34,147 bases of DNA from Nemertoderma westbladi (lineage: Eukaryota; Animalia; Xenacoelomorpha), in the NCBI GenBank assembly GCA_032718475.1, contig JAUCBJ010007619.1, positions 1-34,147 of the forward strand, read 5' to 3'. The position numbers were made by a program, and so were the translations under genes. The notes below the pieces were generated by a model. It saw nothing but the letters and a program-made list of their open reading frames with translations. It was not told the origin of the DNA and searched no databases. Shown here one piece after another: positions 2,405 through 32,885 of the stretch (position 1 is its first letter; each line of letters starts with the position of its first letter).

Positions 2405-2602
2405 ATTGAGAATATGGCCAAGATTCGTGGCAGTGTGTCTAAGCGTTCTGTGGATGGAATGAGACGGCCGTACGCAGCCAGTTGGTTTACGGCTAGTAGC
2501 GGGATCCCCAGGTACTTCCGACTGGGTTCCTCTAACAATGTCTATAACAAACCGTTAGACGAAGGCTATTACTGCGTCTATACTATATCCTATTTGTCTC
2601 AG
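2405..2602 (+). CDS. Lar: Lar exon: membrane-proximal ectodomain with basic processing site ([16 protein letters not shown]...ISYLSQ)
   Basis: ctacag acceptor, CAG|gtaaat donor, 66 codons; KR then PY-AA, F-LG, YNKPL motifs in the same order as in the LAR juxtamembrane region. Confidence 0.85.
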
Positions 2603-5600
2603 GTAAATATTGAGTTTAAGGTTATAATATAACTGTATCAAATAACTATAATAATATACGAATAAACACAATATAGTCAGTCATACAGTAATTATACGAT
2701 TTAGGTCTACAGTGGTTGTTTAGCAACGAACTGTAAGTTCTAGACTAACATTAGTTCATTTACATTGTCGTCATGGATGCGGATTTACATTTAATTAGTC
2801 ACAAACACCCAGACTACACTATCTCTTTACTGAGTTATGATTCTCGTGTCTTTGATTGCATTCACTCTCTACGTTCGTTCGTATGGTTAACCTCTTGAGT
2901 GAGAAGTGCCTGTCGAACTGTAGTGTTACTTTTCTGATGCGCGTACTGTAAAGTGTTACTTTACAAGACCCTCGACCAGTAGTGTTACTTTTTCTGATGA
3001 GCTTACTGTAAAGTGTTACTTTTCTGATGGGCGTACTGTAAAGTGTTACTTTTCGGATGAGCGTACTGTAAAGTGTTACTTTACATACAAGTATGTAACT
3101 ATAGTTATTAATTCATTGGATCGTGTTACTTAGGTAACGAAGTCGGTGTACGTGATCTCTCAGTTCTCGGAACCGTTCCGTGTGGTCCCGTCTGACCCTC
3201 TCGCCGACACCAACCAGGTCGCCGCCACAGACGCCCCCGACTCCAACCAACCCCATCTCTTCTGGATCGCCGGGGTAGCAGCCGGTGTCGTCTTCGTTAT
3301 CGTCGCCGTCCTCGTTGTTATCTTCTGCTTCCGTAAGCGCTCGCTACCCACCATGCCGGACCACAAGGCCTACACGCCGTTACCGCTGCAGCAGCACTCC
3401 AACGACCCGGTGGAACTACGGCGAATCAACTATCAGACGGCCGCGATGCTCGCCAACCCGCCGGTTTCCCTCCTCGAGTTCGGTAGCCATGTAAACCGAT
3501 TGAAACACAACGAAAACGCTAAGTTTTCTCAGGAATACGAGGTGAGGATTTCGGTTTTTAATATCTATAACAATATATGTTCATTCTCTTTATATCAACC
3601 GACCATAAACCGGATGTGTTAGTTGTATAAAACCATTAATTTACCAGTTCGGAGGAGGAATTTATTCGCTATGATATTTAATACACCGTCGCTCCCCCCA
3701 CCAAAAATGTATTTTCTTTGTATTTAATATGTTTAACCGAGTAACCGCGTATATTTGGTTTAATGTCGGAGGTTATGTATCACTTTATATTTAATCGTCT
3801 GATGTAGGTAGCTTACTCCCCGATGCAGTGCACTTAATATCATCAAGCAACCTGTTTAACCTTAGTAGTTCCCTTTTCTGCTATTCTACCCTCCGAGCAG
3901 TTTCATTCTCTCAGTAAACTAAATCACAATCTCAGTGACTAATACAGTGGCCTTTATACGGTATTGGGACTACTGGATCGAGATGGGACACTAAGTTGGC
4001 TGCTGAATCCATGTGGCTATGTGGGGTGTCATTCTGATAATATCTTTAGCAAATATTTCCCTTGGTTAAATTGGAAATACAATAAATAAATGAATTTTTA
4101 TAAATTTCTATAATTTACAGTCGATTGACCCCGGCCAACAGTTTACTTGGGAACACAGCAACAAAGAAATAAACCGAGCGAGGAATCGTTACGGCAATGT
4201 TATAGCATACGATCATTCCCGAGTCGTTCTACATGATAACGAAACAGGTGGGTTATAACCAAAACACTAAACTACTAGTAGCGTAAGTCCTATAAGTATA
4301 TTTTAAAATTATTTTAAATTATTTTAAAGACAGTTATAGAGAAATTGTGAAATAAAACTGGTTGTAGAATTCGAGATAATTTAGAGAAACTCTGTTTACA
4401 TCGTAACTTTTCTGTATGAAAAGTCCTGTCGTTGCCGTTCTTTGACTGGGACCGTATAACGATGAGTTTCTTCCCAGGAGATTACATCAACGCGAATTAT
4501 TTGGACGGCTATAAGAAACCCAATGCTTATATCGCAACCCAAGGTCCGTTGCCTGAGACATTCGGAGACTTCTGGGCGATGGTTTGGGAGCAGAAATCTC
4601 GAGTTATTGTAATGATGACTCGATTGGAGGAGAGGGGACGGGTTAGTCGTTTATTTATCTTCTTTGATAAAGTTTTACATAAAAGTAGCTCTTAAACTCT
4701 GTAGTTCTGAGCGAAGTTCTTTAACAATATACTTTGCAGTAATAATTTATTCCGCTCTTCTGATATTAGAATATTTTATGTGAATGTAATTCAACGCCGC
4801 AATTTTCGACTTTTTGACATTTTAGATATTTTTTATATTTTATTATTTGACTATTTAGATTTTCTGTCTGTTGATTGTTTATATAACAATAATATAGTGT
4901 TTGTGAACAAAATAAAATAATACCGGTACTTACTCTACTCATGCAATTAATCCTTAAATTTGTTTTGGTTATTTACATTCGGTTTGTATTTTTAATGTTT
5001 CAGGTGAAATGCGACCATTATTGGCCGATGCGATTGGGTACCTGCCAAGTCTATGGCGGAGTTTCTGTAACCCTTATGGAAATTCTAGAATTATCGTCTT
5101 ACACAATACGTGTATTATCTATTAGTAAGGACAATAGTAAGCGAGAGGTGAGCACACCTTCCCACCTAACTGAACTATAATTATAAATAGAATGATTTAA
5201 AGGTTACAAATCTCACAGTAACCGCAATAACTTGGAAGCAATTAACTTGTTGAAGAGTTTTATTGTATTAATTACCCTAGACCATCTCAATAATAACCAA
5301 CACCGTTTACATAGGTGAAACAGTTCCAGTTCACATCGTGGCCGGACCACGGGGTACCTGACTACCCGACCACAGTGTTGGCCTTCGCGAGACGCGTGCG
5401 GGGTTGTATACCGGTGGAAGATGGACCAATGGTAGTCCATTGTAGGTTAGTGTTTATCTCGTTACCTAGCAACCTGTTGTATACCGGTGGAAGGACCAAT
5501 GGTAGTCCATTGTAGGTTAGTGTTTATCTCGTTACCTAGCAACCTATTGTATACCGGTGGAAGATGGACCAATGGTAGTCCATTGTAGGTTAGTGTTTAT

Positions 5601-8600
5601 CTCGTTACCTAGCAACCTATTGTATACCGGTGGAAGATGGACCAATGGTAGTCCATTGTAGGTTAGTGTTTATCTCGTTACCTAGCAACCTATTGTATAC
5701 CGGTGGAAGATGGACCAATGGTAGTCCATTGTAGGTTAGTGTTTATCTCGTTAGAAATTTTCTTAGTGGACTTTACTAATACGCCTTTTTATTTCATTAA
5801 ATTTATGTAACTAAAGTTATACTTTATTTACTTTTAGCGCTGGCGTCGGCCGTACTGGTTGTTTTGTTGTCATCGACGCGATGTTGGAACGAATTAAACA
5901 CGAGAAGACGGTCGACATTTACGGTCACGTGACCTGCCTTCGCGCGCGTAGGAACTACATGGTTCAGGTTAGTTGGGTTCAAACAGCTGACAATCCCCGC
6001 CGAGGGTCAATAAAGTAACGCTGTTTACGTTTACGGTTTTTTGCTTTAAAAATTTGTGAAAATTTCGAAAAATTCAAAATATTATTGTTATAAACCCGCT
6101 GATCGATATATTATATTGCCCCTCTTCGTATAAAAATACTACATACTTTCGTGTTATACTTAATTCTGATTGGCTGATTTGTTCGGTAGACCGAGGAGCA
6201 GTACGTGTTCATCCACGACGCGGTGCTGGAGGCGGTTTACTGCGGCGTCACCGAAGTCCCAGCGCGGTCGCTCTACAACCATCTACAGCAGCTCAACATC
6301 GTCCCACCCGGGGATACAACCTCCCAACTCGAGTCAGAGTTTCGGAGACTAGCTAACTCGAAGGCTCTGCCCAGTCGGTTCGTGGGCGCTAATCTACCCG
6401 CAAACCGCTTCAAGAACAGACTCGTTAATATTCTTCCATGTGAGTAACTCAGTTAGTAATAACGCACCCAAGGGAGGCTTTATCAGGGGGCGAACTTAAA
6501 CATTCGACAGTTGTAGTAAATTAATATGCAATAGGTTCTCTTTTCAGGTGAAGTTCTTTAGGGCTTTAGTTACTTTTCATCTTATTCACTAATATGTAAA
6601 AATATTTTAAAAATGATAATTTTTAAATTAATATATTGGAATTTTGATGGAAAATTTGTTGAAAATTGTTATGAAAGTAATTAAGTTTCACTCCCGAGAT
6701 TTTAAAACAAAATATAAATTATCTTTAGCAATAAAAAATTTTAGAATTTTATATAAAAAGTAAAACTTAAATTAAGTTTCGTAGTTAATTAATTAACTCC
6801 AATTAATAATTGTTGTTTAGTTGAGTCGACTAGAGTTCTCCTCCAGCCGATTCGGGGTTCCGATGGTTCGGATTACATCAACGCGAGTTACATCGACGGC
6901 TATCGACTCAAGAAGAACTTTATAGCGACGCAGGGGCCTCTAGCGGAGACTACTGACGATTACTGGAGGATGGTGTGGGAACACAACTCCAGTATCCTAG
7001 TGATGCTAACCAAACTGAGGGAGATGGCTCGGGTAAGTTCTACAGTGATTGGCGAACCAGGCTATTTTTGTGGTGGTGAACGTGAATTCCTTGGCTTAAT
7101 GAGCTTAAACGACTTTCTCATTCATTAGAATTTTAATGTTATTTTCTATTGTAGGAGAAATGTCACCAATATTGGCCAATGGAGAAAGCGACGCAGTGCC
7201 AATATATTGTGGTGGACCCGTTACATGAATACCAGATGCCGCAATACATAGTGAGGGAATTCAAGTTAACAGATACAAGAGTAAGTTAAAGTAAAGTTCA
7301 CATACTGGCAAGAGTTGGCTGGTAGATTCTTTCATGTATTCTATTTGGTAAATTATAACCATACGCAGTGACAATGAGTGACAACGTCGCAGTGACAATG
7401 AGTGACAACGTCGTAGTGACAATGAGTGACAACGCCGTAGTGACAATGAGTGACAACGTCGCAGTGATAATGTGTGACAACGTCGTAGTGACAATGAGTG
7501 ACAACGTCGCAGTAATAATGAGTGACAACGTCGCAGTGATAATGAGTGACAACGTCGTAGTGACAATGACTGACAACGTCGCAGTGACAATGAGTGACAA
7601 CTTCGTAGTGACAATGAGTGACAACGTCGCAGTAATAATGAGTGACAACGTCGCAGTGATAATGAGTGACAACGTCGTAGTGACAATGAGTGACAACGTC
7701 GCAGTAATAATGAGTGACAACGTCGTAGTGACAATGAGTGACAACGTCGTAGTGACAATGAGTGACAACGTCGCAGTGATAATGAGTGACAACGTCGCAG
7801 TGATAATGAGTGACAACGTCGCAGTGACAATGAGTGAAAACGTCGTAGCGACAATGAGTGACAACGTCGCAGTGATAATGAGTGACAACGTCGCAGTGAT
7901 AATGAGTGACAACGTCGCAGTGACAATGAGTGAAAACGTCGTAGCGACAATGAGTGACAACGTCGCAGTGATAATGAGTGACAACGTCGCAGTGACAATG
8001 AGTGACAACGTCGTAGTGACAATGAGTGACAACGTCGTAGTGACAATGAGTGACAACGTCGTAGTGACAATGAGTGACAACGTCGTAGTGACAATGAGTG
8101 ACAACGTCGTAGTGACAATGAGTGACAACGTCGCAGTGATAATGAGTGACAACGTCGCAGTGACAATGAGTGGCAACGTCGTAGTGACAATCAGTGACAA
8201 CGTCGTAGTGACAATGAGTGACAACGTCGTAGTGACAATGAGTGACAACGTCGCAGTGATAATGAGTGACAACGTCGCAGTGACAATGAGTGAAAACGTC
8301 GCAGTGGTAATGAGTGATAACGTCGCAGTGGTAATGAGTGACAACGTCGTAGTGACAATGAGTGACAACGTCGTAGTGACAATGAGTGACAACGTCGCAG
8401 TGATAATGAGTGACAACGTCGCAGTGACAATGAGTGACAACGTCGTAGTGACAATCAGTGACAACGTCGTAGTGACAATGAGTGACAACGTCGTAGTGAC
8501 AATGAGTGACAACGTCGCAGTAATAATGAGTGACAACGTCGTAGTGACAATGAGTGACAACGTCGCAGCGACAATGAGTGACAACGTCGCAGTGATAATG

Positions 8601-11600
8601 AGTGACAACGTCGCAGTGATAATGAGTGACAACGTCGCAGTGATAATGAGTGACAACGTCGCAGTGACAATGAGTGAAAACGCCGTAGCGACAATGAGTG
8701 ACAACGTCGCAGTGACAATGAGTGACAACGTCGTAGTGACAATGAGTGACAACGTCGCAGTGATAATGAGTGACAACGTCGCAGTGATAATGAGTGACAA
8801 CGTCGTAGTGACAATGAGTGACAACGTCGCAGTGACAATGAGTGAAAACGTCGTAGCGACAATGAGTGACAACGTCGTAGTGACAATGAGTGACAACGTC
8901 GCAGTAATAATGAGTGACAACGTCGTAGTGACAATGAGTGACAACGTCGTAGTGGTAATGAGTGACAACGTCGCAGTGACAATGAGTGACAACGTCGCAG
9001 TGACAATGAGTGACAACATCGTAGTGACAATGAGTGACAACGTCGTAGTGACAATGAGTGACAACGTCGCAGTAATAATGAGTGACAACGTCGTAGTGAC
9101 AATGAGTGACAACGTCGTAGTGGTAATGAGTGACAACGTCGCAGTGACAATGAGTGACAACGTCGCAGTGACAATGAGTGACAACATCGTAGTGACAATG
9201 AGTGACAACGTCGCAGTGACAATGAGTGACAACGTCGCAGTAATAATGAGTGACAACGTCGTAGTGACAATGAGTGACAACTTCGCAGTGATAATGAGTG
9301 ACAACGTCGCAGTGACAATGAGTGACAACGTCGCAGTGACAATGAGTGACAACGTCGTAGTGACAATGAGTGACAACGTCGTAGTGACAATGAGTGACAA
9401 CGTCGCAGTGACAATGAGTGACAACGTCGTAGTGACAATGAGTGACAACGTCGCAGTAATAATGAGTGACAACGTCGTAGTGACAATGAGTGACAACGTC
9501 GCAGTAATAATGAGTGACAACGTCGTAGTGACAATGAGTGACAACGTCGCAGTGACAATGAGTGACAACGTCGCAGTGACAATGAGTGACAACGTCGCAG
9601 TGACAATGAGTGAAAACGTCGTAGCGACAATGAGTGACAACGTCGTAGTGACAATGAGTGACAACGTCGCAGTAATAATGAGTGACAACGTCGTAGTGAC
9701 AATGAGTGACAACGTCGCAGTGATAATGAGTGACAACGTCGCAGTGACAATGAGTGACAACGTCGCAGTGACAATGAGTGACAACGTCGTAGTGACAATG
9801 AGTGACAACGTCGTAGTGGTAATGAGTGACAACGTCGCAGTGACAATGAGTGACAACGTCGCAGTGACAATGAGTGACAACGTCGCAGTGACAATGAGTG
9901 ACAACGTCGCAGTGATAATGAGTGACAACGTCGCAGTGGTAATGAGCGACAACGTCGCAGTGATAATGAGTGACAACGTCGCAGTGACAATGAGTGACAA
10001 CGTCGCAGTGATAATGAGTGACAACGTCGCAGTGGTAATGAGCGACAACGTCGCAGTGATAATGAGTGACAACGTCGCAGTGGTAATGAGTGACAACGTC
10101 GTAGTGACAATGAGTGACAACGTCGCAGTGATAATGAGTGACAACGTCGCAGTGACAATGAGTGACAACGTCGCAGTGATAATGAGTTCCGAAAAGCTAG
10201 AAGGACAATAGACCTCATTCTGACAGGATAATTGATAAGTTATTTACAAGGGAATAGAGTCGCTTAACTCATCTTCTTTGTATTGTAGACTACTCCGAGC
10301 GCGTGTGTTAGAGGTGGTTGCGAGACGTTAGTGCCCGCGAGACGTTAGTGCCCGCGAGATGTTAGTGCCCGCGAGACATTAGTGCCCGCGAGACGTTATG
10401 CCCGCGAGACGTTAGTGCCAGCGAGACGTTAGTGCCCGCGAGACGTTAGTGCCCGCGAGACGTTATGCCCGCGAGACGTTAGTGCCCGCGAGACGTTAGT
10501 GCCCGCGAGAATTTAGTGCCCGCGAGACGTTAGTGCCCGCGAGACGTTAGTGCCCGCGAGACGTTAGTGCCTGCGAGACGTTACTACCCGCGAGACGTAT
10601 GGCCCGCGAGACGTTAGTGCCCGCGAGACTTTAGTGCCCGCGAGACTTTAGTGCCCGCGAGATGTTAGTGCCCGCGAGACGTTTGTGCCAGCGAGACGTT
10701 ATGCCCGCGAGACGTTAGTGCCCGCGAGACGTTAGTGCCCGCGAGACGTTACTACCCGCGAGACGTTACTACCCGCGAGACGTATGGCCCGCGAGACGTT
10801 AGTGCCCGCGAGACTTTAGTGCCCGCGAGACTTTAGTGCCCGCGAGACGTAGGGCCCGCGAGACGTTAGTGCCCGCGAGACTTTAGTGCCCGCGAGACTT
10901 TAGTGCCCGCGAGACGTTAGTGCCCGCGAGACGTTTGTGCCCGCGAGACGTTATGCCCGCGAGACGTTAGTGCCCGCGAGACGTTAGTGCCCGCGAGACG
11001 TTACTACCCGCGAGACGTTACTACCCGCGAGACGTATGGCCCGCGAGACGTTAGTGCCCGCGAGACTTTAGTGCCCGCGAGACTTTAGTGCCCGCGAGAC
11101 GTAGGGCCCGCGAGACGTTAGTGCCCGCGAGACTTTAGTGCCCGCGAGACGTTAGTGCCCGCGAGACGTTAGTGCCCGCGAGACGTTAGTGCCTGCGAGA
11201 CGTTACTACCCGCGAGACGTATGGCCCGCGAGACGTTAGTGCCCGCGAGACTTTAGTGCCCGCGAGACTTTAGTGCCCGCGAGACGTTAGTGCCCGCGAG
11301 ACGTTTGTGCCCGCGAGACGTTATGCCCGCGAGACGTTAGTGCCCGCGAGACGTTAGTGCCCGCGTGACGTTACTACCCGCGAGACGTTACTACCCGCGA
11401 GACGTATGGCCCGCGAGACGTTAGTGCCCGCGAGACTTTAGTGCCCGCGAGACTTTAGTGCCCGCGAGACGTAGGGCCCGCGAGACGTTAGTGCCCGCGA
11501 GACTTTAGTGCCCGCGAGACTTTAGTGCCCGCGAGACGTTATGCCCGCCTCCCAAGACCCACAAACACACGTTATTATTTTTACGTGTTTCAGGATGGCC

Positions 11601-14600
11601 AAACTCGCACGGTAAGACAGTTCCATTATATCGACTGGCCGGAACAAGGGGTTCCGAAAGTGGTCGATCAGTTTCTAGATTTTATTAACCAAGTTCATAA
11701 AACCAAAGAACAGTTCGGTTGTGACGGTCCCATTACAGTTCACTGCAGGTTAGTGAAGGTTTAATAGTATAGAAATATTTCAATATTTTATTAAGTAATG
11801 TGTGTAAGTAAATGAGGAGGAATGATTGTTTGTAATTTCATGATTTGAAGCATTTTAGAACCATAAAAATAGTTATTTTCAGAAGAATATTTTAATAATA
11901 ACAATATAATAAAACACAATACATTTCAATAATTATACATTTATTTTGGGAACTAATATATAAAAATTACGCGATTCCTAAATTTCTACACTAGTCGGTT
12001 ATAAAGTACGCATGTGATGGGATTAGTCCTACAATTACGCCAATAAAAGATAAGTTATTTTCGGTAAAATAAATGTATCATTCGAGGTAAAGACCCCTAG
12101 ATCCCTTCCTATATTAAATATATAATAACAAACACCAAGAGTAATGATATACCGGGCCTGCATATAAAAATAATACGAGAATGAGGTTGGATGTTGGGTG
12201 GGGAGGTCTCGGAGACCAGCATCTAGAGAATGAGATTGGATATCGGGTGGGGAGGTCTCGGAGACCAGCATCTAGAGAATGAGGTTGGGTATCGGGTGGG
12301 GAGGTCTCGGAGACCAGCATCTAGAGAATGAGATTGGATATCGGGTGGGGAGGTCTCGGAGACCAGCATCTAGAGAATGAGGTTGGGTATCGGGTGGGGA
12401 GGTCTCGGAGACCAGCATCTAGAGAATGAGGTTGGGTATCGGGTGGGGAGGTGTCGGAGACCAGCATCTAGAGAATGAGGTTGGGTATCGGGTGGGGAGG
12501 TCTCGGAGACCAGCATCTAGAGAATGGGGTTGGGTATCGGGTGGGGAGGTCTCGGAGACCAGCATCTAGAGAATGGGGTTGGATGTCGGGTGGGGAGGTC
12601 TCGGAGACCAGCATCTAGAGAATGAGGTTGGGTATCGGGTGGGGAGGTCTCGGAGACCAGCATCTAGAGAATGAGGTTGGGTATCGGGTGGGGAGGTCTC
12701 GGAGACCAGCATCTAGAGAATGGGGTTGGGTATCGGGTGGGGAGGTCTCGGAGACCAGCATCTAGAGAATGAGGTTGGATATCGGGTGGGGAGGTCTCGG
12801 AGACCAGCATCTAGAGAATGAGGTTGGATGTTGGGTGGGGAGGTCTCGGAGACCAGCATCTAGAGAATGAGATTGGATGTCGGGTGGGGAGGTCTCGGAG
12901 ACCAGCATCTAGAGAATGAGGTTGGGTATCGGGTGGGGAGGTCTCGGAGACCAGCATCTAGAGAATGAGGTTGGATGTTGGGTGGGGAGGTCTCGGAGAC
13001 CAGCATCTAGAGAATGAGATTGGATGTCGGGTGGGGAGGTCTCGGAGACCAGCATCTAGAGAATGAGGTTGGATGTCGGGTGGGGAGGTCTCGGAGACCA
13101 GCATCTAGAGAATGAGATTGGATGTCGGGTGGGGAGGTCTCGGAGACCAGCATCTAGAGAATGAGGAATGGGGATAAATGCGTCATTATAAAAATAACAT
13201 GTACTCCGGCAGGTATTGCATTATACCATGCATGGAAGTATATTATAGTAAATATATTCACTGAATTGAGTAAGTAATATTGTTGTCATGATTTTCCTAA
13301 AAGTGGCCAAATTCTACCGGTTCATATGCAAAATCGATACGATTTTTTAACTTTTCCCTCACTATTATTCTAATGGGAACAGCCCCGGTTTCAAGTCGAA
13401 AAATAAAAATAAAACGACATATTCTATTTAAATAAAGATCCTGTGTTTCACTTTCGGGCTCTCGTTTCTTATTTTCCCTTCGCTACACTCGTTCATGGAA
13501 ATATTCCCACTCGAGCCGGCGTTAAATACAGTGTTTCTTTATTTAAATCTAATATAGTTAGTATATATTCCACACAATTTGTGTGTTTTGATTTAATTTA
13601 ACTGGTTTTATTGGCACTACTGTTAGAGAAAGAGGAACTTTCTTCAGGCTGAAGATTTGGAACTAATTTCTTTAATATAATTCATAACATCGTGGTAGGC
13701 CGTATCGAACGACTCACCAATATTTACTTTCATTTTATATTGCAGCGCCGGGGTTGGTCGAACTGGAGTTTTTATTGCATTGAGTATAATTATAGAGCGA
13801 ATACAATTAGAAGGTCTAGTTGATATCTTCCAAGTTGTAAAACTTTTGAGAACACAGCGGCCAGCTATGGTACAAACTGAGGTAGGTTGGTACAAACCGA
13901 GGTAGGTTGGCCAAACTGGGGTAAGTTGGTACAAACTGGGGTAGGTTGGTACAAACTGGGGTAGGTTGGTACAAACTGAGGTAGGTTGGTACAAACCGTG
14001 TAGGTTGGTACAAACCGAGGTAGGTTGGTACAAACCGAGGTAGGTTGATACAAACTGGGGTAGGTTGGTACAAACCGAGGTAGATTGGTACAAACCGAGG
14101 TAGGTTGGTACAAACTGAGGTAGGTTGGTACAAACTGAGGTAGGTTGATACAAACTGGGGTAGGTTGGTACAAACCGAGATAGGTTGGTACAAACTGAGG
14201 TAGGTTGGTACAAACCGAGGTAGGTTGGTACAAACCGAGGTAGGTTGGTACAAACTGAGGTAGGTTGGTATAAACTGGGGTAGGTTGGTACAAACCGAGG
14301 TAGGTTGGTACAAACTGAGGTAGGTTGGTACAAACCGAGGTAGGTTGGTACAAACCGAGGTAGGTTGGTACAAACTGGGGTAGGTTGGTATAAACTGGGG
14401 TAGGTTGGTATAAACTGGGGTAGGTCGGTACAAACCGAGATAGGTTGGTACAAACTGAGGTAGGTTAGTACAAATCGAGGTAGGTTGGTATAAACCGAGT
14501 AGGTTGGTACAAACCGAGGTAGGTTGGTACAAACTGAGGTAAGTTGGTACAAACTGGGGTAGGTCGGTACAAACCGAGGTAGGTTGGTACAAACCGAGGT

Positions 14601-17456
14601 AGGTTGGTACAAACTGGGGTAGGTCGGTACAAACCGAGGTAGGTTGGTATAAACTGGGGTAGGTTGGTACAAACCGAGGTAGGTTGGTATAAACCGAGTA
14701 GGTTGGTACAAAACCGAGGTAGGTTGGTACAAATCGAGGTAGGTTTGTACAAACCGAGGTAGGTTGGTACAAACCGAGGTAGGTTGGTACAAACCGAGGT
14801 AGGTTGGTATAAACTGGGGTAGGTTGGTACAAACCGAGGTAGGTTGGTATAAACCGAGTAGGTTGGTACAAACCGAGGTAGGTTGGTACAAACCGAGGTA
14901 GGTTGGTATAAACTGGGGTAGGTTGGTACAAACCGAGGTAGGTTGGTACAAACCGAGGTAGGTTGGTATAAACTGGGGTAGGTTGGTACAAACCGAGGTA
15001 GGTTGGTACAAACCGAGGTAGGTTGGTACAAACCGAGGTATGTTGGTATAAACTGAGGTAGGTTGGTACAAACCGAGGTAGGTTGGTACAAACCGAGGTA
15101 GGTTGGTATAAACTGGGGTAGGTTGGTACAAACTGAGGTAGGTTGGTACAAACCGAGGTAGGTTGGTACAAACCGAGGTAGGTTGGTACAAACTGGGGTA
15201 GGTTGGTACAAACCGAGGTAGGTTGGTACAAACTGGGGTAGGTTGGTACAAACCGAGGTAGGTTGATACAAACTGGGGTAGGTTGGTACAAACCGAGGTA
15301 GGTTGGTACAAACCGAGGTAGGTTGGTACAAACCGAGGTAGGTTGGTACAAACTGGGGTAGGTTGGTACAAACCGAGGTAGGTTGGTACAAACTGGGGTA
15401 GGTTGGTACAAACCGAGGTAGGTTGGTACAAACTGGGGTAGGTTGGTACAAACCGAGGTAGGTTGATACAAACTGGGGTAGGTTGGTACAAACCGAGATA
15501 GGTTGGTACAAACTGAGGTAGGTTGGTACAGATCGAGGTAGGTTGGTACAAACTGAGGTAGGTTGATACAAACTGGGGTAGGTTGGTACAAACCGAGATA
15601 GGTTGGTACAAACTGAGGTAGGTTGGTACAAACCGAGGTAGGTTGGTACAAACCGAGGTAGGTTGGTACAAACCGAGGTAGGTTGGTACAAACTGAGGTA
15701 GGTTGGTACAAACCGTGTAGGTTGGTACAAACCGTGTAGGTTGGTACAAACCGAGGTAGGTTGGTACAAACCGAGGTAGGTTGGTACAAACTGAGGTAGG
15801 TTGGTACAAACTGAGGTAGGTTGGTACAAACCGAGGTAGGTTGGTACAAACTGAGGTAGGTTGGTACAAACCGAGGTAGGTTGGTACAAACCGAGGTAGG
15901 TTGGTACAAACTGAGGTAGGTTGGTACAAACTGAGGTAGGTTGGTACAAACTGAGGTAGGTTGGTACAAACTGAGGTAGGTGGGTACAAACCGAGGTAGG
16001 TTGGTACAAACTGAGGTAGGTGGGTACAAACCGAGGTAGGTTGGTACAAAATGAGGTAGGTTGGTACAAACTGAGGTAGGTTGGTACAAACTGAGGTAGG
16101 TTGGTACAAACCGAGGTAGGTTGATACAAACCGAGGTAGGTTGGTACAAACCGAGGTAGGTTGGTACAAACCGAGGTAGGTTGGTACAAACCGAGGTAGG
16201 TTGGTACAAACTGAGGTAGGTTGGTACAAACCGAGGTAGGTTGGTATAAACCGAGGTAGGTTGGTACAAACTGAGGTAGGTTGGTACAAACTGAGGTAGG
16301 TTGTTACAAACTGAGGTAGGTTGGTACAAACTGAGGTAGGTTGGTACAAACCGTGTAGGTTGGTACAAACTGAGGTAGGTTGGTACAAACCGAGGTAGTT
16401 GGTACAAACTGAGGTAGGTTGGTACAAACTGAGGTAGGTTGGTATAAACTGGGGTAGGTTGGTATAAACCGAGGTAGGTTGGTACAAACTGAGGTAGGTT
16501 GGTACAAACTGAGGTAGGTTGTTACAAACTGAGGTAGGTTGGTACAAACTGAGGTAGGTTGGTACAAACTGAGGTAGGTTGGTACAAACCGTGTAGGTTG
16601 GTACAAACCGAGGTAGGTTGGTACAAACTGAGGTAGGTTGGTACAAACTGAGGTAGGTTGGTACAAACCGTGTAGGTTGGTACAAACTGAGGTAGGTTGG
16701 TACAAACCGTGTAGGTTGGTACAAACCGAGGTAGGTTGGTACAAACCGAGGTAGGTTGGTACAAACCGAGGTAGGTTGGTACAAACCGAGGTAGGTTGGT
16801 ACAAACCGAGGTAGGTTGGTATAAACTGAGGTAGGTTGGTACAAACCGAGGTAGGTTGGTACAAACCGAGGTCAGGTTGGTACAAACCGAGGTAGGTTTG
16901 TACAAACCGAGGTAGGTTTGTACAAACTGAGGTAGGTTGGTACAAACCGAGGTAGGTTTGTACAAACCGAGGTAGGTTGGTACAAACCGAGGTAGGTTGG
17001 TATAAACTGAGGTAGGTTGGTACAAACTGAGGTAGGTTGGTACAAACCGAGGTAGGTTGGTATAAACCGTGTAGGTTGGTACAAACCGAGGTAGGTTGGT
17101 ACAAACCGAGGTAGGTTGGTATAAACTGGGGTAGGTTGGTACAAACCGAGGTAGGTTGGTACAAACCGAGGTAGGTTGGTACAAACCGAGGTAGGTTGGT
17201 ATAAACTGGGGTAGGTTGGTACAAACCGAGGTAGGTTGGTACAAACCGAGGTAGGTTGGTACAAACCGAGGTATGTTGGTATAAACTGGGGTAGGTTGGT
17301 ATACTAATTATAATACAAAATATACTTTGATAGTTTTTGTGTTTATAATCCTTTAATTATTAACCAGATATATTTGTAAATTTGCAGGACCAATACGCGT
17401 TGTGTTATAAAGCGGCATTGGAATACGTTGGCAGCTACGATCAGTATTTATCCTAG
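2405..17456 (+). CDS. Lar: LAR-family (type IIa) receptor protein tyrosine phosphatase, 5'-partial; join(2405-2602,3134-3541,4121-4247,4478-4641,5004-5147,5315-5445,5838-5967,6190-6439,6821-7032,7155-7280,11594-11748,13746-13881,17388-17456)
   Basis: Manual splicing gives 2250 nt of continuous frame ending in TAG; all 12 introns are GT-AG with matching phases. Contains a TM helix, D1 motifs [38 protein letters not shown] and D2 motifs [21 protein letters not shown]. Segments such as [20 protein letters not shown] and [10 protein letters not shown] are diagnostic of LAR/PTPRD/PTPRS. Confidence 0.96.
2917..3085. repeat. Short intronic tandem repeat, about 30-bp unit ACTGTAAAGTGTTACTTTTCTGATGRGCGT, about 5 partly interrupted copies
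   Basis: Units start at 2945, 3005, 3035, 3065. Confidence 0.85.
3134..3541 (+). CDS. Lar: Lar exon: transmembrane helix and wedge region (VTKSVY...FSQEYE)
   Basis: ttag acceptor, GAG|gtgagg donor; hydrophobic [25 protein letters not shown] followed by RKR; [12 protein letters not shown] motif. Confidence 0.93.
4121..4247 (+). CDS. Lar: Lar exon: start of D1 ([14 protein letters not shown]...[16 protein letters not shown])
   Basis: ttacag acceptor, G|gtgggt donor (phase 1); not in ORF track, translated by hand. Confidence 0.95.
4478..4641 (+). CDS. Lar: Lar exon: D1 (GDYINANY...IATQGP...RLEERGR)
   Basis: ttcccag acceptor, CGG|gttagt donor; canonical PTP motifs. Confidence 0.95.
5004..5147 (+). 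CDS. Lar: Lar exon: D1 (VKCDHYWP...SKRE)
   Basis: tttcag acceptor, GAG|gtgagc donor; KCxxYWP motif. Confidence 0.93.
5315..5445 (+). CDS. Lar: Lar exon: D1 WPD loop to catalytic Cys ([15 protein letters not shown]...PMVVHC)
   Basis: catag acceptor, AG|gttagt donor (phase 2). Confidence 0.95.
5404..5753 (+). repeat. 73-bp tandem repeat (about 4.8 copies) made of the last 42 nt of a Lar exon plus its donor and intron start
   Basis: Units start at 5404, 5477, 5547, 5620, 5693; the second has a 3-bp deletion. Confidence 0.96.
5838..5967 (+). CDS. Lar: Lar exon: D1 P-loop ([44 protein letters not shown])
   Basis: ttttag acceptor, CAG|gttagt donor; not in ORF track, translated by hand. Confidence 0.95.
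6190..6439 (+). CDS. Lar: Lar exon: D1 Q-loop, linker, start of D2 (TEEQYVFIH...KNRLVNILP)
   Basis: gtag acceptor, T|gtgagt donor (phase 1). Confidence 0.94.
6821..7032 (+). CDS. Lar: Lar exon: D2 ([23 protein letters not shown]...TKLREMAR)
   Basis: tttag acceptor, CGG|gtaagt donor; translated by hand. Confidence 0.95.
7155..7280 (+). CDS. Lar: Lar exon: D2 (EKCHQYWP...REFKLTDTR)
   Basis: tgtag acceptor, AGA|gtaagt donor; translated by hand. Confidence 0.95.
7364..10187. repeat. Intronic tandem array, 24-bp unit CGYAGTGAYAATGAGTGACAACGT, about 118 copies
   Basis: Directly visible; unit contains AGTGACAA twice. Confidence 0.98.
10320..11548. repeat. Intronic tandem array, 17-bp CpG-rich unit GCGAGACGTTAGTGCCC, about 73 copies
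   Basis: Directly visible; 16-bp variants and higher-order blocks. Confidence 0.98.
11594..11748 (+). CDS. Lar: Lar exon: D2 ([10 protein letters not shown]...WPEQGVP...PITVHC)
   Basis: tttcag acceptor, AG|gttagt donor (phase 2). Confidence 0.95.
12177..13166. repeat. Intronic tandem array, 49-bp G-rich unit GAGAATGAGGTTGGRTRTCGGGTGGGGAGGTCTCGGAGACCAGCATCTA, about 20 copies
   Basis: Period of 49 (e.g. 12422 to 12471). Confidence 0.97.
13746..13881 (+). CDS. Lar: Lar exon: D2 P-loop ([14 protein letters not shown]...[11 protein letters not shown])
   Basis: ttgcag acceptor, GAG|gtaggt donor; translated by hand. Confidence 0.95.
13868..17303 (+). repeat. Tandem array, 20-bp unit TGGTACAAACYGAG|GTAGGT, about 170 copies; first copy is the real exon end and donor
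   Basis: First unit overlaps the MVQTE codons (13868-13881) and donor (13882-13887). Confidence 0.98.
17388..17456 (+). CDS. Lar: Lar terminal coding exon ([22 protein letters not shown])
   Basis: tttgcag acceptor; matches the LAR-type C-terminus DQYxxCYxAALEYxGS; TAG at 17454-17456. Confidence 0.95.
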   Translation, partial: DQYALCYKAALEYVGSYDQYLS

Positions 17457-19199: not shown

Positions 19200-20548
19200 A
19201 AGGAATGCCTGTTCACCACATGGGTGATCTTCCACAGTAAACCCTTCCGCTCTGTTTCCCAAAGGAATGCCTGTTCACCACCATGGTTGATCTTCCACAG
19301 TAAACCCTTCCACTCTGTTTCCTAAAGGAATGCCTGTTCACCACATGGGTGATCTTCCACAGTAAACCCTTCCACTCTGTTTTCCAAAGGAATGCCTGTT
19401 CACTACCATGGGTGATCTTCCACAGTAAACCCTTCCGCTCTGTTTCCCAAAGGAATGCCTGTTCAAAACCATGGGTGATCTTCCACAGTAAACCCTTCCT
19501 CACTGTTTTCTAAAGGAATGCCTGTTCACTACCGTGGGTGAACTTCCACAGTAAACCCTTCCACTCTGTTTCCTAAAGGAAAAGGAATGCATGTTCACCA
19601 CTATATGGGTGATCTTCCACAGTAAACACTTGCACTCTGTTTCCCAAAGGAATGCCTGTTCACCGCCATGGGTGATCTTCCACAGTAAACCCTTCCACTC
19701 TGTTTCCCAAAGGAATGCCTGTTCACCACATGGGTGATCTTCCACAGTAAACCCTTCCACTCTGTTTTCCAAAGGAATGCCTGTTCACTACCGTGGGTGA
19801 TCTTCCACAGTAAACCCTTCCACTCTGTTTCCTAAAGGAAAAGGAATGCATGTTCACCACTATATGGGTGATCTTCCACAGTAAACACTTGCACTCTGTT
19901 TCCCAAAGGAATGCCTGTTCACCGCCATGGGTGATCTTCCACAGTAAACCCTTCCACTCTGTTTCCCAAAGGAATGCCTGTTCACCACCATGGGTGATCT
20001 TCCACAGTAAACAATTCCACTCTGTTTCCTAAAGGAATGCCTGTTCACCACCACCACCATGGGTGATCTTCCACAGTAAACACTTCCACTCTGTTTCCCA
20101 AAGGAATGCCTGTTCACCTCCTTGGGTGATCTTCCTCAGTAAACCCTTCCACTCTGTTTCCCAAAGGAATGCCTGTTCACCACCATGGGTGATCTTCCAC
20201 AGTAAACAATTCCACTCTGTTTCCTAAAGGAATGCCTGTTCACCACCACCACCATGGGTGATCTTCCACAGTAAACCCTTGCACTCTGTTTCCTAAAGGA
20301 ATGCCTGTTCACCACCATGGGTGATCTTCCACAGTAAACCCTTCCACTCTGTTTCCCAAAGGAATGCCTGTCCACCACCATGGGTGATCTTCCACAGTAA
20401 ACTCTTCCACTCTGTTTCCTAAAGGAATGCCTCATCACCACCATGGGTGATATTCCACAGTAAACCCTTCCACTCTGTTTCTAATGGCTGTTCACCACCA
20501 TGGGTGATCTTCCACAGTAAATCCTGCCACTCTGTTTCCCAAAGGAAT
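19200..20548. repeat. Intergenic tandem array, about 63-bp unit AAGGAATGCCTGTTCACCACCATGGGTGATCTTCCACAGTAAACCCTTCCACTCTGTTTCCCA, about 21 copies
   Basis: Directly visible; variable CAC microsatellite within the unit. Confidence 0.97.
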
Positions 20549-22440
20549 TGTACGCGCTTTTATAGTAACCTAGGAAATTAGCTACATTTTTTCGCTGCAG
20601 CTTTAAGAGTGTACATTGATTTAATATTATTTCAATACCCATATTACTACATCGGCATAAGATGCGTTGGCGTTGTATCACACATCTCCACATATCACAC
20701 ATCTCCACATAGATGTATCAACAGTTACTCGCACAGTTTCGAAACTTCGCATAGTTATAACTGTATAAAGATCGTCAGTCTGCGTTTAGGAAAAATATTA
20801 TATGACAAAACAGGACAAGCGACGAGCGCAACGATGCATATAATGAAGACGAGTACTGCGTTGACTAAATTATTATATAAACCACCTGGCTTCACATATT
20901 GATCGCATCCCTAGTTATTATTATTATAAAGATCGTCCTAGCCTGCGTTTAAGAAATATATTTAAATACAAAACAGGACGAACGCAAAGAGGCTTATAAT
21001 GAAAACGAGTACTGCGTTTATTATATTCCTATAAACCACCTGGCTTTGCATATTTAACGTGCGATTGGAAATAAGTTCGTGCTACCCTTCCGTGGGTGGT
21101 AGATGTCGCGGTTATGTATTGGTGGTTGGGAAGGGTGGGGGGGGGGGGGGGGGGTGGAGATTAAAAGGGGTGAACACGTACTGTCCACCTTTCTTTGATT
21201 GATTGGTGGTGTGGGTAAATTTCTCAAAACCTGATTTTGTGATACAGTCGCTGCATTTTAATTTGTATATAATAACTAGGCCTCGTGCTGCGCGAAGTCC
21301 CCACGAACGTGTTGGATTTGTTAACATAAGACTTTGCCTTAACACTGGCTTTAAAATTTATTGCTAATGCAGCTTTTTGTTTTCGTGTTGGCATTTAATG
21401 TATGGAATTTGCGCAACCGAAACAAAAAACGGTGCCCAGCCCGTGAGAATGCAGAGGCGCAATATAACATTGTATAAGATAATGTGTTTTACTTTTTTGT
21501 TACTCTTTTTCTTTATACAGTTCAGGTACCTACTGTATACAGTATATATTTGATTTATTGATTGATGTGTTGGTGGAATAATTATATTGATCGATTAAAA
21601 GATTCGTTGACAGATAGTCTTCAAAAATATTTTTCCTAAATTAAATTCATTCTACATAATACACTGTAAGTAATTCTAAAATATAAAAATTACTCCGGAA
21701 GAAATGAATAGCTAAGTGTGGTGATAGTGGTCTCTCTGAGGGAGGGTGGAGGTGGCATTTTGCCATTATGAAAAATTGAATTATTTTGTTTATATCGGTG
21801 TATGTGAAAAGTTGCCTTTGGGAGTCAACCAACCGACAAACAAAATGGCAAACCGGCACTCTTAGACAACTCCACTGTTGGTTGTCTTCTTATTTCCTTG
21901 TGAAGATATTATAACACCAATTCTGCCGTGCAATGTAAAAATACCGTAAGTCAAAAAAGTAATTTCGAGTAAAACGCAAATTACCTTTTGTCTTCAGATT
22001 GTTGGTTTAAATTGTCCGTAAATTTCTAATTTCTTCTGGTGGTGGGAAATTTTTCTGCGTATTATTTTTCACTTTCCATTAATATTTTGACTTCAGGGTT
22101 GTCTTTTGTACTAACAGCGTTTTTGCGTTGTACAACGTGTATGTAAATACATTCGATACAATGCAAAAAATGTCACAATGACAAATAAGTAAGTCTGTCA
22201 GTTACACTGTCTTGCATTTTGTAAATATGAGACATTAATTACGGGGGGCTACCCCCTGCGGTTATTAATTAATTTGTAAATAACTCGAAATTATTATAAA
22301 ATCTTATGAAATGAATAAAAAATTTGCGTGAAAGAATGTCATTCCGAGAAAATTGCCTTCAAAGTAATACGCCACCGACACATTTGACATACCACCGACA
22401 ACAAAAGACACAAACCGACAGGTAAAATCTCAAACCGATT

Positions 22441-23345: not shown

Positions 23346-23998
23346 TGTCGACAAGACGTCATATCATTCTTAATATAGATGTATATATGCAACATTCCAC
23401 TACCGGTACTGAACAAACTGTGGTATATTGTGTTCAATAATATCCGAAACCAGGTGGTTTATAGGAGTATAAAGTCAACTTAGTACTACTCTTCATTATA
23501 AGCCTCGTTGTGCTCGTCCTGTTTTGTCATAAAATATTTTAACGACCTTTATAACTATGAGAAGTCTCGAAACTGTGCAAGTAACTGCTGATTTATGGCA
23601 GATGGATACATGATGTATGGCAGATGAGACAATAAGTTTTGACAAAATACTCACCCCGCCTGTATGATACATGCAGGTTCGTTATTACAGTTATGTAGAA
23701 TTAATTTAATTTTGGAAAACTGGTATATCTGTAAACCAATATATCTGTAAACTAATATATAATTTAATGAATCAATCTTCCAATCGATCAATATTATTTT
23801 CCACCACCTCACCAATCAATACACCAATATGGGTAGGTATACAGTAAGTAAAAAAGTCACACATAACAGCATAATATCGTATATAATAGGCTATATTGCG
23901 CCTCTGCATTCTCACGGGCTGGGCACCGTTTTTTGTTTCGGTTGCGCAAATTCCATACAGTAAATGCCAACATGAAAACAAAAAGCTGCATTAGCAAT

Positions 23999-25445
23999 AA
24001 ATTTTAAAGCCAGTTAAGGCAAAGTCTTAGGTTAACAAATCCAAAAGTACAATATGTTGCCTGGCTTATAGGGATACAGAAAAGGTTGAATAGTTATGAA
24101 GGGGTCATCCTTGGGAGATTGTGTTGGGCAACCATTCTTTTCCGGTAACATCCAAGAGAGAAAGGAGCTTCCGTTACTTCTTGTTTCCTTCCTTCACTTT
24201 ACTATACGTCATTTAGGTAAATACCAATTACGTCACACAATGTGCAGGTGTATGTAAAGTAATAAATTTCGGAATTGTATTGCACTGTACTGTATGTCAG
24301 AGTATAGGAACTGATACCGCAGAAAAATACCACCGACAATAGTCTGACTACCACCGACAAAAACTAATAATAAAAAAAACACACCGACATATGAAAAACA
24401 CTAACGATTTTTACCATTACGTTATGCAATATAATAATTTAAACAGATAATTTATGAAGGCGGTATTATATTTTAAAGAAATTATCATGACTAATTACAC
24501 CACCGACAACAGGCCGACAGTGGACAATATACTTTGTTATAAATATTTGGACTGGAAATAAAAATTGTATAATCATGTACTGAAATAGTTTACTAACATT
24601 GCCGAAGCTGTCGGTATACTGTCGGTTTGCGATCTTACCTGTCGGTTTGTGTCTTTTGTTGTCGGTGGTATGCGAAAGGTGTCGGTGGTTGTCGGTGTAG
24701 TATTTAGTCAAATTTTAAAGCCAGTTAAGGCAAAGTCTTATGTTAACAAATCCAACAGTACAATATGCCGCCTCTGGCTTATGGGGATACAGAAAAGGTT
24801 GAATAGTTATGAAGTGGTCATCCTTGGGAGATTGTGTTGGGCAACCACTCTTTTCCGGTAACATCCAAGAGAGAAAGGAGTTTCCGTTGCTTCTTGTTTC
24901 CTTCCTTCACTTTACTTTACGTCATTTAGGTAAATACCAATTACGTCACACAATGTGCAGCTGTATGTAAAGTAATAAATTTCGGCATTGTAGGGGCCTA
25001 TCGCACTGTACTGTATGTCCAAGTTTAAGAACGGATACCGCAGAAATATACCACTGACAACAGTCTGACTACCACCGACAAAAACTAATAATAAAAGAAA
25101 CACACCGACATATGAAAAACACTAACGATTTTTACCATTACGCTATGCAATATAATAATTTAAAACAAGATAATATATGAAGGCGGTATTATATTTTAAA
25201 GAAATTATCATGACTAATTACACCACCGACAACAGGCCGACAGTGGACAATATACTTTGTTATAAATATTTGGACTGGGAATAAAAATTGTACAATCATG
25301 TACTGAAATAGTTTACTAACATTGCCGAAGTTGTCGGTATACTGTCGGTTTGCGATCTTACCTGTCGGTTTGTGTCGGTTTGTGTCTTTTGTTGTCGGTG
25401 GTATGCGAAAGGTGTCGGTGGTTGTCGGTGGCGTATTTAGTCAAA
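23999..25445. repeat. Direct tandem duplication of about 710-735 bp (23999-24709 and 24710-25445)
   Basis: ATTTTAAAGCCAGTTAAGGCAAAGTCTTA at 24001 and 24712; colinear with scattered substitutions and indels. Confidence 0.93.
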
Positions 25446-26899: not shown

Positions 26900-28250
26900 T
26901 TAATTCCAAATCGAGTTATCCTTCATTACCAGTTTGCCGAGTAAGTAATTCTTGACTTTGTGTTTGAACGTTTCCATGGAGATAGAGTTTCTTACATCCA
27001 ATGGTAGCGAATTCCATATTATCGGCCCTAGAAACGAGAAGCATTCACTTCCTGTTATAGTTCCTCACAAGGGAACAACAGCGCGAGTACATCCATGTCT
27101 GAGATTAACCGATACAGAGTTGAACTGGACCAATGATGAGAGATACGAGGGAGATAGCGACTGTGTTATACGATACATATGATTGGCTGTTAGCTGATCG
27201 ATGCGAGATTCTATCGGAAGCCATGAGATTTCATTGTAATGCTCTTGACCAATGTGCGTTCTACTTCCGAGACCTAGACAAAAACGAATATATTTTCTTT
27301 GCAGTGCTTGTAGTTGCAGCTGTAGCCGTTTAGAAGCACTTGGATACCAACAGGAGGAAACGAAATCCAAGTGGGGTTGTATGAGAGCGTTACATAGAAG
27401 ACGACGTGTGTAGCCGTCTAAAACTGCCCCATGTCTGTAAATAAATTTCAGTGTCTTGTTCCCCTTTGTAATCACATGCGATGCCATGGTATCTCCAGAA
27501 AGGTCAGCGTCTAAATAACAACCCAAGTATTTAATAGATTTTTGCTGTTCTATGTGGATCCCATTACAAAATACTTTCAATTCACAGTTGTCGACTAGAC
27601 GTTGATGTGTCCCAAATAAAATTGATTTAGTCTTGTCAAAGTTCAAACTCAGTCTGTTGTCGGTCGCCCAGTCGAATATGTTGCTTAGTGTCATTGACAG
27701 CGTATCAGATATTGTAGCCACATTATCACCAGAAGTCAATATATTCGAGTCGTCTGCCAGCTTCAGAGATATACAAGATGGTAAGACCTGTAGATTAGTA
27801 TTACTACTACTAGTTGCTTCAAATTCTTTTGCGGGACTCTCTATGGCCATATCAAGATCGTTAACATATATTAAGAATAGCAGGATAGACAGCAATCCTC
27901 CCTGCGGGACTCCTCTCTTTATCAAGGCTCTGATTGAAGAAAGTGTACCATTGACATATACCATTTGGCTGCGTTCACTTAGGTACGATTTAAACCATCC
28001 AACAGTGGCTGTAGAAAATCCAATTGCTCGGAGTTTGAATAAGAGCAAATCGTGATCGACAGTGTCAAATGCCTTGCGCAGATCTATAAATACAACGCCA
28101 GTCATTTTCCCCCCATCTACAGATTCTTTGACATAATTATTTAGATACATCAGACACGTTTCAACTGAGAATCCCTTTCTGAATCCGGATTGCAAAGGGT
28201 CCAATATGTTGTAGAGTACTAAATAATGAAATATCTGATCAATGGTCACG
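26900..28250 (-). pseudogene. LINE ORF2 reverse transcriptase part, N-terminally deleted, frameshift near 27065
   Basis: QSGFRKGFS, FIDLRKAFDTVDH, GVPQGG, LADD, KYLG motifs; after the frameshift continues GSECFSFLGPIIWNSLP...FKHKVKNYLL to TAA near 26900. Confidence 0.9.
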
Positions 28251-29712: not shown

Positions 29713-29745
29713 TTTGGATGATGTAGATAGCGGATAAACAGATAG

Positions 29746-31439: not shown

Positions 31440-31746
31440 CGGAGTCTATTACAGTATTAAACACGCAACCAAAGCGATCAGATGATGGCGAAGTAATCTA
31501 CAAAACAGAGAACGACAGGAAGGCGATGGAGTTTCTGAGTTAATTAAACCCAGTAAGATGTGCATAGCGAAGCGATCGAGACGGATAACGGAGTCTATTA
31601 CAGTATTAAACACGCAACCAAAGCGATCAGACGATGGCGAAGTAATCTACAAAACAGAGAACGACAGGAAGGCGATGGAGTTTATTAAACCCAGTAAGAT
31701 GGTGCATAGCGAAGCGATCGAGACGGATAACGGAGTCTATTACAGA
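31440..31746. repeat. Tandem duplication of about 145 bp within a degenerate GGAGTCTA-repeat region
   Basis: CGGAGTCTATTACAG at 31440, 31589 and 31731. Confidence 0.88.
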
Positions 31747-32683: not shown

Positions 32684-32885
32684 ATGGGAGAATCTTTTAG
32701 GCTCGTTAAGCCAAGGAATGCCTGTTCACCACCATGGGTGATCTTTCACAGTAAACCCTTCCACTCTGTTTCCCAAGTTGCCTTGGTTCCCAATCGACCA
32801 CTGAAGGATAAAAGCCGGGGTTGGGCTAGGCTGCAGCATTTAAAGCACTGTGCCCAAACAGTACTGCTCCATCTAGGGATCGAAC
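32684..32885 (-). mobile_element. 5'-truncated tRNA-derived SINE with 13-bp target-site duplication
   Basis: ATTGAATATTTGA at 32671-32683 and 32886-32898; begins with B-box-like GTTCGATCCC; central CAACCCCGGCTTTTATCCTTCAGTGGTCGAT resembles the Nin/Deu SINE domain. Confidence 0.7.

What the first reader, a model, noticed from the sequence alone, without database searches (positions are those of the whole stretch)
13868..17303. A 3.4-kb satellite built from about 170 copies of the gene's own last splice donor
Seen: the 20-bp unit is exactly the last 14 nt of the D2 exon (TGGTACAAACTGAG, codons of MVQTE) plus the donor hexamer GTAGGT, and the array fills nearly the whole final intron. Most copies keep AG|GTAGGT. 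The array ends in TGGTATAC, so an ancestral TGGTA microhomology 20 bp apart (one exonic, one intronic) could have seeded it. Only the first donor gives the conserved LAR C-terminus. The second donor would give a frameshifted tail (VGWYKPRTNTRCV...LLL*), and any later donor includes an in-frame TAG (VGWYKPR*). Inference: the spliceosome must pick one of well over 100 near-identical U1 sites, or the array acts as a U1 decoy or source of D2-tail isoforms.
Basis: partly seen in the sequence, partly recalled or inferred. Interest (0 to 1): 0.85.

Follow-up and report, generated by a model that had tools for sequence, protein, structure and literature searches.

The report
Splice-donor minisatellite fills LAR intron
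In an animal's LAR receptor-phosphatase gene, the last 14 bases of an exon plus its splice signal are repeated 172 times and fill 97% of the last intron, yet the one assembled transcript found is cut at the first signal, so this is likely a large but tolerated case of a repeat type already known from human and lancelet genes.

Summary
The array is real: 172 copies of a 20-bp unit (13868-17301) made of 14 exon bases plus the donor GTAGGT, filling 97.5% of the last intron of an intact LAR-type phosphatase gene. 123 copies keep GAG|GTAGGT; only 38 match the exon copy exactly. A second DNA sample also holds head-to-tail units, but array length is unverified. One run that behaves as spliced RNA gives a single contig joining the first donor (13881) to the acceptor (17388), with no contig in the array. 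The intron predates the array: the same position is seen in 64 of 80 related animal loci, and none of those 64 has a donor-spanning array. It belongs to a known class: exon-intron-boundary minisatellites of human F7, CBS and IFI6 and the lancelet 'mirages', where the most upstream donor wins. The decoy/isoform idea has no support here but is not excluded for rare transcripts. The gene also has a 73-bp and probably a 33-bp donor array. The scan has noted the same thing many times before on other DNA, in this genome (up to about 2,100 copies) and in others (unchecked AI notes). Any novelty lies in that genome-wide pattern, not in this locus.

The parts
13746..13881 (+). Penultimate coding exon of the LAR-type phosphatase (D2 domain, ...SAGVGRTG...MVQTE); its last 14 nt are the exon part of repeat unit 1
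   Evidence: Open 749-aa model; Pfam Y_phosphatase E 6e-13; spliced contig in run X4
13879..13887 (+). Authentic 5' splice site GAG|GTAGGT (cut after 13881); the one used in the spliced contig
   Evidence: X4 record 31: loose end behind 13882 is exon 13 sequence; same intron position in 64 of 80 related loci
13868..17301 (+). 20-bp exon-end + donor minisatellite, 172 full copies plus a 5-7 nt partial copy; 29 unit variants
   Evidence: head-to-tail unit contigs in runs X1 and X2
13903..13905 (+). In-frame TAG inside copy 2; it would end any transcript spliced from donor 3 or later
17302..17387 (+). Unique A+T-rich 3' part of the last intron with the acceptor (...TTGCAG)
17388..17456 (+). Last coding exon ([22 protein letters not shown]); the X4 contig runs on about 590 nt past the joint
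   Evidence: matches the C-termini of PTPRF/PTPRD/Lar relatives
2405..17456 (+). Host gene, 13 coding exons in the window: end of ectodomain, transmembrane segment, D1 and D2 phosphatase domains of a LAR-family receptor phosphatase
5404..5753 (+). Second donor-spanning array of the gene: 73-bp unit (42 exon nt + GTTAGT + intron), 4.8 copies; any later donor truncates the protein at 413 aa
1..2290 (+). 33-bp array (69 or more copies, start outside the window), probably a third donor array: unit holds G|GTTAGT and reads open in one frame
   Evidence: such a word in 4 of 3,321 random 33-nt intron units; inferred, upstream exon not seen

Best explanation
A 20-bp stretch straddling an old splice donor of a LAR-type phosphatase gene is repeated 172 times into the last intron, the assembled transcript is cut at the first donor, and the array is likely a tolerated by-product of minisatellite instability rather than a regulator. 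Shown: the unit's make-up, the intact reading frame with donor 1, use of donor 1 in one spliced contig, and the old age of the intron. Inferred: a first duplication in an intron of about 97 nt, by slippage or repair at the TGGTA pair; growth and partial homogenisation by unequal exchange, with T11C spread through 98 of 172 copies while the exon copy is held by protein constraint; choice of the most upstream donor by position (5'-to-3' scanning or exon definition, as tested for human F7), so that all later copies leave with the intron; and removal of stray products from donor 5 onward by nonsense-mediated decay (50-55 nt rule, recalled).
For:: X4 record 31 (2,349 nt, depth 50.2) covers 13739-13882, with exon 11 letters before it and exon 13 letters behind it. 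X4 depth is 27 on 13869-13894, which this one contig accounts for (50.2 x 14/26), and 0 on 13895-13925; only donor 1 gives the C-terminus shared with PTPRF/PTPRD/Lar; 64 of 80 related loci have GT at the same codon boundary and 0 of those 64 have a tandem array over it, so the array is lineage-specific and dispensable; changes are scattered over exon and donor positions alike, with no higher-order period; the first donor is not more accessible than the others (rank 146 of 163), so position, not structure, likely decides; six other arrays of 150 nt or more lie in this gene, three of them with no donor word. PMC1557585: in F7 only the most upstream of 5-9 identical donors is used, even against stronger downstream sites.
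Against: Only one RNA-like run, as assembled contigs, which drop rare forms. It is labelled 'DNA?' and is taken as RNA from its joined exons and its lack of cover on the single-copy intron stretch 13557-13738. In human IFI6 and CBS two downstream pseudo-donors are used as well (PMC1557585 Introduction), so leakage is likely possible here. Copies at 13921 and 14539 carry GTAAGT, closer to consensus than the real site. Products of donors 2-4 would likely escape decay. The scanning rule was tested in mammalian cells with at most 9 copies, not in this animal with 172. Array length was not checked with long reads.
Confidence: 0.78

Rival explanations
1. Leaky or regulated donor choice: downstream copies are used at a meaningful rate. 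Donors 2-4 would give LAR forms that lack the last 22 residues of D2, later donors would feed decay, and copy number would tune LAR dose or bind up U1.
For: 168 of 172 copies keep GT and 123 keep GAG|GTAGGT. Human IFI6 and CBS use two extra pseudo-donors (PMC1557585).
Against: No X4 contig covers 13895-13925, which every such transcript would contain. 0 of 64 related loci have such an array. Donor positions are not spared from change compared with the rest of the unit.
Confidence: 0.12
2. The array is real but much shorter in the animal: its 3.4-kb length is inflated or mis-tiled by library amplification or assembly.
For: No long read was laid across it. One X1 contig has one unit fewer before the distinctive third copy, and unit variants seen in X1 and X2 contigs are absent from the window.
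Against: 29 unit variants in irregular order with regional clustering look like an evolved array, not a copying loop. The separate sample X2 holds head-to-tail unit contigs and the rare third-copy variant. Summed contig depth on the unit is hundreds of times the flank in X1 and X2 (14,664 vs 23; 6,737 vs 25; not a copy number).
Confidence: 0.07
3. The array created the intron (intron gain by tandem duplication of an AG|GT site).
For: The unit holds AG|GT and the array makes up 97.5% of the intron.
Against: The acceptor lies 86 nt beyond the array in unique sequence, and 64 of 80 related animal loci have an intron at the same codon boundary.
Confidence: 0.02

Closest known systems
Human F7 intron 7 37-bp VNTR (Borensztajn et al. 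2006, PMC1557585; read: abstract, Introduction, Discussion and one Results section)
   Same: First unit spans the real exon-intron boundary, the donor is reiterated in the intron, and only the most upstream donor is used.
   Different: 5-9 copies with 4 exon + 33 intron nt; here 172 copies with 14 exon + 6 intron nt, filling 97.5% of the intron. The mechanism was tested by mutation in F7 and not here.
Human CBS intron 13 31-bp VNTR, and the IFI6 (6-16), LMNB2 and PDGF minisatellites (as cited in PMC1557585 Introduction; CBS notation c.1444_1467+7(16_21) seen in passages of PMC2630376; primary papers not read)
   Same: CBS has a mostly exonic unit (24 + 7 nt) ending just past the donor, like 14 + 6 here.
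   Different: 10-25 copies. CBS and IFI6 also use two downstream pseudo-donors, which was not seen here at contig level.
Lancelet 'mirage' minisatellites: Adh3, globins BflGb6/BflGb9, troponin C, PGBD5 (passages of PMC3087553 and PMC3902484; Adh3 and troponin C known to me only through these)
   Same: Tandem copies of exon-intron borders (units of 10-160 bp), several per gene or genome, normal splicing, concerted evolution inside the array.
   Different: The arrays given with counts there have 2-7 copies. The host here is probably not a sequenced lancelet: best protein hits were 63-69% identical on one exon.

Membership tests
Exon-intron-boundary minisatellite (F7/CBS type, 'mirage') | Head-to-tail array with a unit of minisatellite size | tested here: met
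   Period 20, 172 copies
Exon-intron-boundary minisatellite (F7/CBS type, 'mirage') | First unit spans the authentic exon-intron boundary | tested here: met
   14 exon nt + 6 intron nt; boundary confirmed by frame, homologues and a spliced contig
Exon-intron-boundary minisatellite (F7/CBS type, 'mirage') | Splice signal reiterated in the intron | tested here: met
   123 of 172 GAG|GTAGGT; GT intact in 168 of 172
Exon-intron-boundary minisatellite (F7/CBS type, 'mirage') | Normal mRNA made from the most upstream donor | tested here: met
   One spliced contig in one RNA-like run; rare forms not visible
Exon-intron-boundary minisatellite (F7/CBS type, 'mirage') | Length polymorphism or somatic instability | tested here: inconclusive
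   Unit variants in X1/X2 contigs absent from the window; lengths cannot be read from short contigs
Exon-intron-boundary minisatellite (F7/CBS type, 'mirage') | Downstream donors work if the first is lost | not testable with these tools
   Needs a minigene
Intron gain by tandem duplication | Intron position is new and its acceptor lies in the last copy | tested here: not met
   Position shared by 64 of 80 related loci; acceptor 86 nt beyond the array
Multi-locus satellite DNA | Same unit at other places in the genome | not testable with these tools
   No genome held; no copy of the unit core elsewhere on the + strand of the window
LAR-family (type IIa) receptor tyrosine phosphatase (host gene) | Transmembrane segment followed by tandem D1 and D2 domains; nearest relatives PTPRF/PTPRD/PTPRS/Lar | tested here: met
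   749-aa open model, 60-62% identical to PTPRD/S-type hits; Pfam PF00102 on 5 of 5 exons tested; hit names. Ig domains lie outside the window; no tree built

The most novel reading that the evidence does not exclude
This animal has a genome-wide mutational process, possibly coupled to transcription or splicing, that seeds minisatellites on splice junctions more often than chance and grows them to hundreds or thousands of copies. Its spliceosome then picks the first donor purely by position from 170 or more equals. This LAR gene, with up to 3 of its 7 arrays on donors, would be one case, and the genome a natural test bed for how far the most-upstream-donor rule scales.
Probability: 0.3. Interest if true: 0.62.

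Novelty: new member of a known kind. Interest (0 to 1): 0.3.

Why it matters
On its own the locus extends a known oddity to a copy number about seven times above the largest case in the papers I read (25 pseudo-sites in IFI6). It suggests that first-donor choice can hold against more than 120 identical competitors in an invertebrate. It offers a ready natural minigene for the question of 5' splice-site choice by position versus strength. It would matter more if a genome-wide count showed that arrays arise on splice junctions above chance, since that would point to a link between splicing and DNA instability and to a route of intron growth.

Tried and rejected
No whole genome is held, so no genome-wide count was possible. 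The run search listed no holder on record as RNA; that blank is no evidence on expression. Donor use at the 73-bp and 33-bp arrays, and a possible small exon before the 17-bp array, were not read out from RNA and stay open. An exact 30-nt exon-donor pattern found 0 matches in metagenome contigs. RNA structure as the reason for first-donor choice was rejected. The unit junction is a near-palindrome (12 of 14 positions in 78 junctions, perfect in 3), but tandem folding is no stronger than shuffled units (z -0.17 and -0.88) and the real donor ranks 146 of 163 in accessibility. Microhomology as a special trigger was not supported (9 of 10 other donors have such a pair). No higher-order repeat: no matching run of 8 or more units, against a shuffled mean of 5.5. 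Enrichment of arrays on donors in this gene is weak: 2 of 6 against 0.57 expected (P 0.10); 3 of 7 against 0.66 with the 33-bp array (P 0.02); leaving out the focal, pre-selected array, 1 of 5 (P 0.43) or 2 of 6 (P 0.11) (rough null). My first idea that selection purges acceptor-spanning arrays and keeps only donor ones was dropped: BflGb6 has acceptor mirages (PMC3087553) and earlier notes list many in this genome. Nine paper searches found no report of this array and no genome-wide survey of such arrays in an invertebrate. The library lacks most subscription papers, and I read no supplements. PMC10078293 passages were read and did not bear on the case.

Full report
Host gene. The window holds the 3' part of an animal receptor tyrosine phosphatase gene on the + strand. 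Thirteen exons from 2405 to 17456, all flanked by AG/GT, join into one open frame of 749 residues with a transmembrane segment and two phosphatase domains. Five of five exons tested match Pfam Y_phosphatase. The D1-D2 linker exon finds PTPRF/PTPRD/PTPRS/Lar proteins at 63-69% identity, and the whole model is 60-62% identical to the best of those 120 proteins. No close relative of the animal appeared, so it is probably neither a vertebrate nor a sequenced lancelet.

The observation. Tandem Repeats Finder reports period 20, 172.2 copies at 13868-17301. Tiling against the first unit gives 172 full units in 29 variants, mean identity 94%, then TGGTA(TA). The first unit is the last 14 bases of the exon 13746-13881 plus GTAGGT. 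The intron is 3,506 nt, 97.5% array, and would be 97 nt with one unit. 123 of 172 copies keep GAG|GTAGGT, 27 have GGG|GTAGGT, and 168 keep the GT. Only 38 copies equal the exon copy; T11C, silent in the Thr codon, is in 98. Of 152 donor-like sites, the first gives the conserved tail, the second a frameshifted tail, and the other 150 stop at the TAG in copy 2.

Is it real? Six runs were listed, none on record as RNA; four were laid on 13167-13925, which holds the exon and the first three units. X1 may be the source of the window and is not independent. X2, a different sample, has a contig from 13506 to 13890 (too short past the donor to count as bridging), contigs made of units with unit letters hanging before 13868, and cover of the third copy's rare variant. 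Summed depth on the unit is hundreds of times that of the flank in both runs, which is not a copy number. So a head-to-tail array exists in a second sample; its length is not verified. Two unit variants seen in these contigs do not occur in the window, which hints at other alleles.

Which donor is used? Run X4 behaves as spliced RNA. It has no cover on the single-copy intron stretch 13557-13738, and one 2,349-nt contig (depth 50.2) lies on 13739-13882 with exon 11 letters before and exon 13 letters behind. That is the join 13881 to 17388. This contig alone accounts for the X4 depth of 27 on 13869-13894, and X4 has no contig on 13895-13925, which any transcript from a later donor or with the intron retained would contain. 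Limits: one run, contigs drop rare forms, and products from donor 5 onward would likely be removed by nonsense-mediated decay (50-55 nt rule, recalled). Products of donors 2-4 would likely escape it and would lose the last 22 residues of D2.

Age of the intron. In 64 of 80 a GT follows the same codon; the other 16 run straight into the next exon (cDNA or intron loss). The next exon was found in 32, at 50-2,388 nt. None of the 64 has a tandem array over the donor, though 6 have under 300 nt downstream. These loci include paralogues and repeated samples. The intron is old and the array is a later, lineage-specific addition, which rules out intron gain by duplication.

How it likely works. Shown: unit make-up, intact frame, first-donor join, old intron. 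Inferred: a 20-bp duplication over the donor of a short intron, then growth and partial homogenisation by unequal exchange, with the exon copy held fixed by the protein (the A13G variant, in 28 copies, would turn the conserved Glu into Gly). The TGGTA pair fits a slippage origin but is common: 9 of 10 other donors have such a pair. Structure does not single out the first donor: folding is no stronger than shuffled units and the real donor ranks 146 of 163 in accessibility. Position is left as the likely rule. Changes fall on donor and exon positions alike, giving no sign of selection to keep or destroy the extra donors, though copies are not independent events.

Surroundings. The gene is full of unrelated arrays. 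The 73-bp array at 5404-5753 also spans a real donor; any later donor would truncate the protein at 413 residues. The 33-bp array at 1-2290 probably does too: its unit has G|GTTAGT, a word found in 4 of 3,321 random 33-nt intron units, and it reads open in one frame; its start is outside the window. The 30-, 24- and 49-bp arrays hold no donor word. The 17-bp array has GTTAGT in 31 copies behind a possible 38-nt cryptic exon. Against a rough null, donor-spanning arrays are 2 of 6 (expected 0.57, P 0.10) or 3 of 7 (0.66, P 0.02). Without the pre-selected focal array they are 1 of 5 (P 0.43) or 2 of 6 (P 0.11). This gene alone does not prove a bias.

What is known. PMC1557585 (abstract, Introduction, Discussion and one Results section read) describes the F7 37-bp VNTR whose first unit spans the exon 7 boundary. 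It shows by mutation that only the most upstream donor is used, even against stronger downstream sites short of a perfect consensus. It cites IFI6 (25 pseudo-sites, two used), CBS (15-20 copies, two used), LMNB2 and PDGF. Passages of PMC2630376 give the CBS unit as 24 exon + 7 intron bases. Passages of PMC3087553 and PMC3902484 describe lancelet 'mirages' on both kinds of border that do not disturb splicing. The array meets the four testable defining features of this class. My paper searches found no report of this locus or of a genome-wide survey in an invertebrate. A genome paper on Nemertoderma has no occurrence of 'splice' or 'simple repeat' in its main text (PMC10565955, passages only). 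Supplements were not read.

Earlier notes of this scan (unchecked AI notes, leads only). Many other pieces of this genome carry donor or acceptor arrays of 100 to about 2,100 copies, and 123 findings in at least 24 genomes use the same words. They gave me the 'mirage' term and two papers, which I then read, and made me drop the idea that only donor arrays are tolerated. Nothing was noted near this locus.

Verdict. A real, large, likely tolerated splice-donor minisatellite: a new member of a known kind, interest 0.3. The genome-wide pattern, if it beats a proper null, is the part worth pursuing.

Noticed in passing
window 5404-5753: The 73-bp donor array has 12 nt at each unit joint (CCTAGCAACCT plus one base) that match neither flank and contain an inverted copy of the donor's TAGGTT; possibly a templated repair insertion. 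Copy 2 lacks 3 nt.
   Followed up: partly
window 1-2290: 33-bp array, probably a third donor array. Its length is a multiple of three and it reads open in one frame, so use of a later donor would add 11-residue repeats to the ectodomain instead of truncating.
   Followed up: partly
window 10289-11548: The 17-bp array starts at C|GTTAGT, 38 nt after an acceptor-like site with a pyrimidine run (AG at 10287-10288): a possible frameshifting cryptic exon. A donor-like word arises by chance in 2.7% of 17-nt units.
   Followed up: partly
window 7364-10187 and 12177-13166: Purely intronic 24-bp (118 copies) and 49-bp (20 copies) arrays. All seven arrays inside the gene are G-rich on the sense strand (GC skew +0.05 to +0.51).
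   Followed up: partly
window 2405-11748: GTTAGT is the commonest donor hexamer of this gene (4 of 12 introns), with T at +3.
   Followed up: no
window 19200-20548 and about 32712-32778: 63-bp array (21 copies) downstream of the gene; a single near-identical unit lies 12 kb further on, so the unit may come from a dispersed element.
   Followed up: no
window about 27400-30700, - strand: Looks by eye like a LINE-type retroelement (reverse transcriptase and endonuclease-like stretches) with an internal 436-bp tandem duplication at 28785-29660; not translated or searched.
   Followed up: no
window about 13200-13560: Intron stretch covered by many unrelated contigs at high depth in all four runs: a dispersed repeat fragment just upstream of exon 12.
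   Followed up: no
window about 21280-21600, 23800-24050, 24000-24700 and 24700-25440: Inverted and direct repeats of several hundred bases, MITE-like, seen by eye; also a 149-bp tandem pair at 31440-31753.
   Followed up: no
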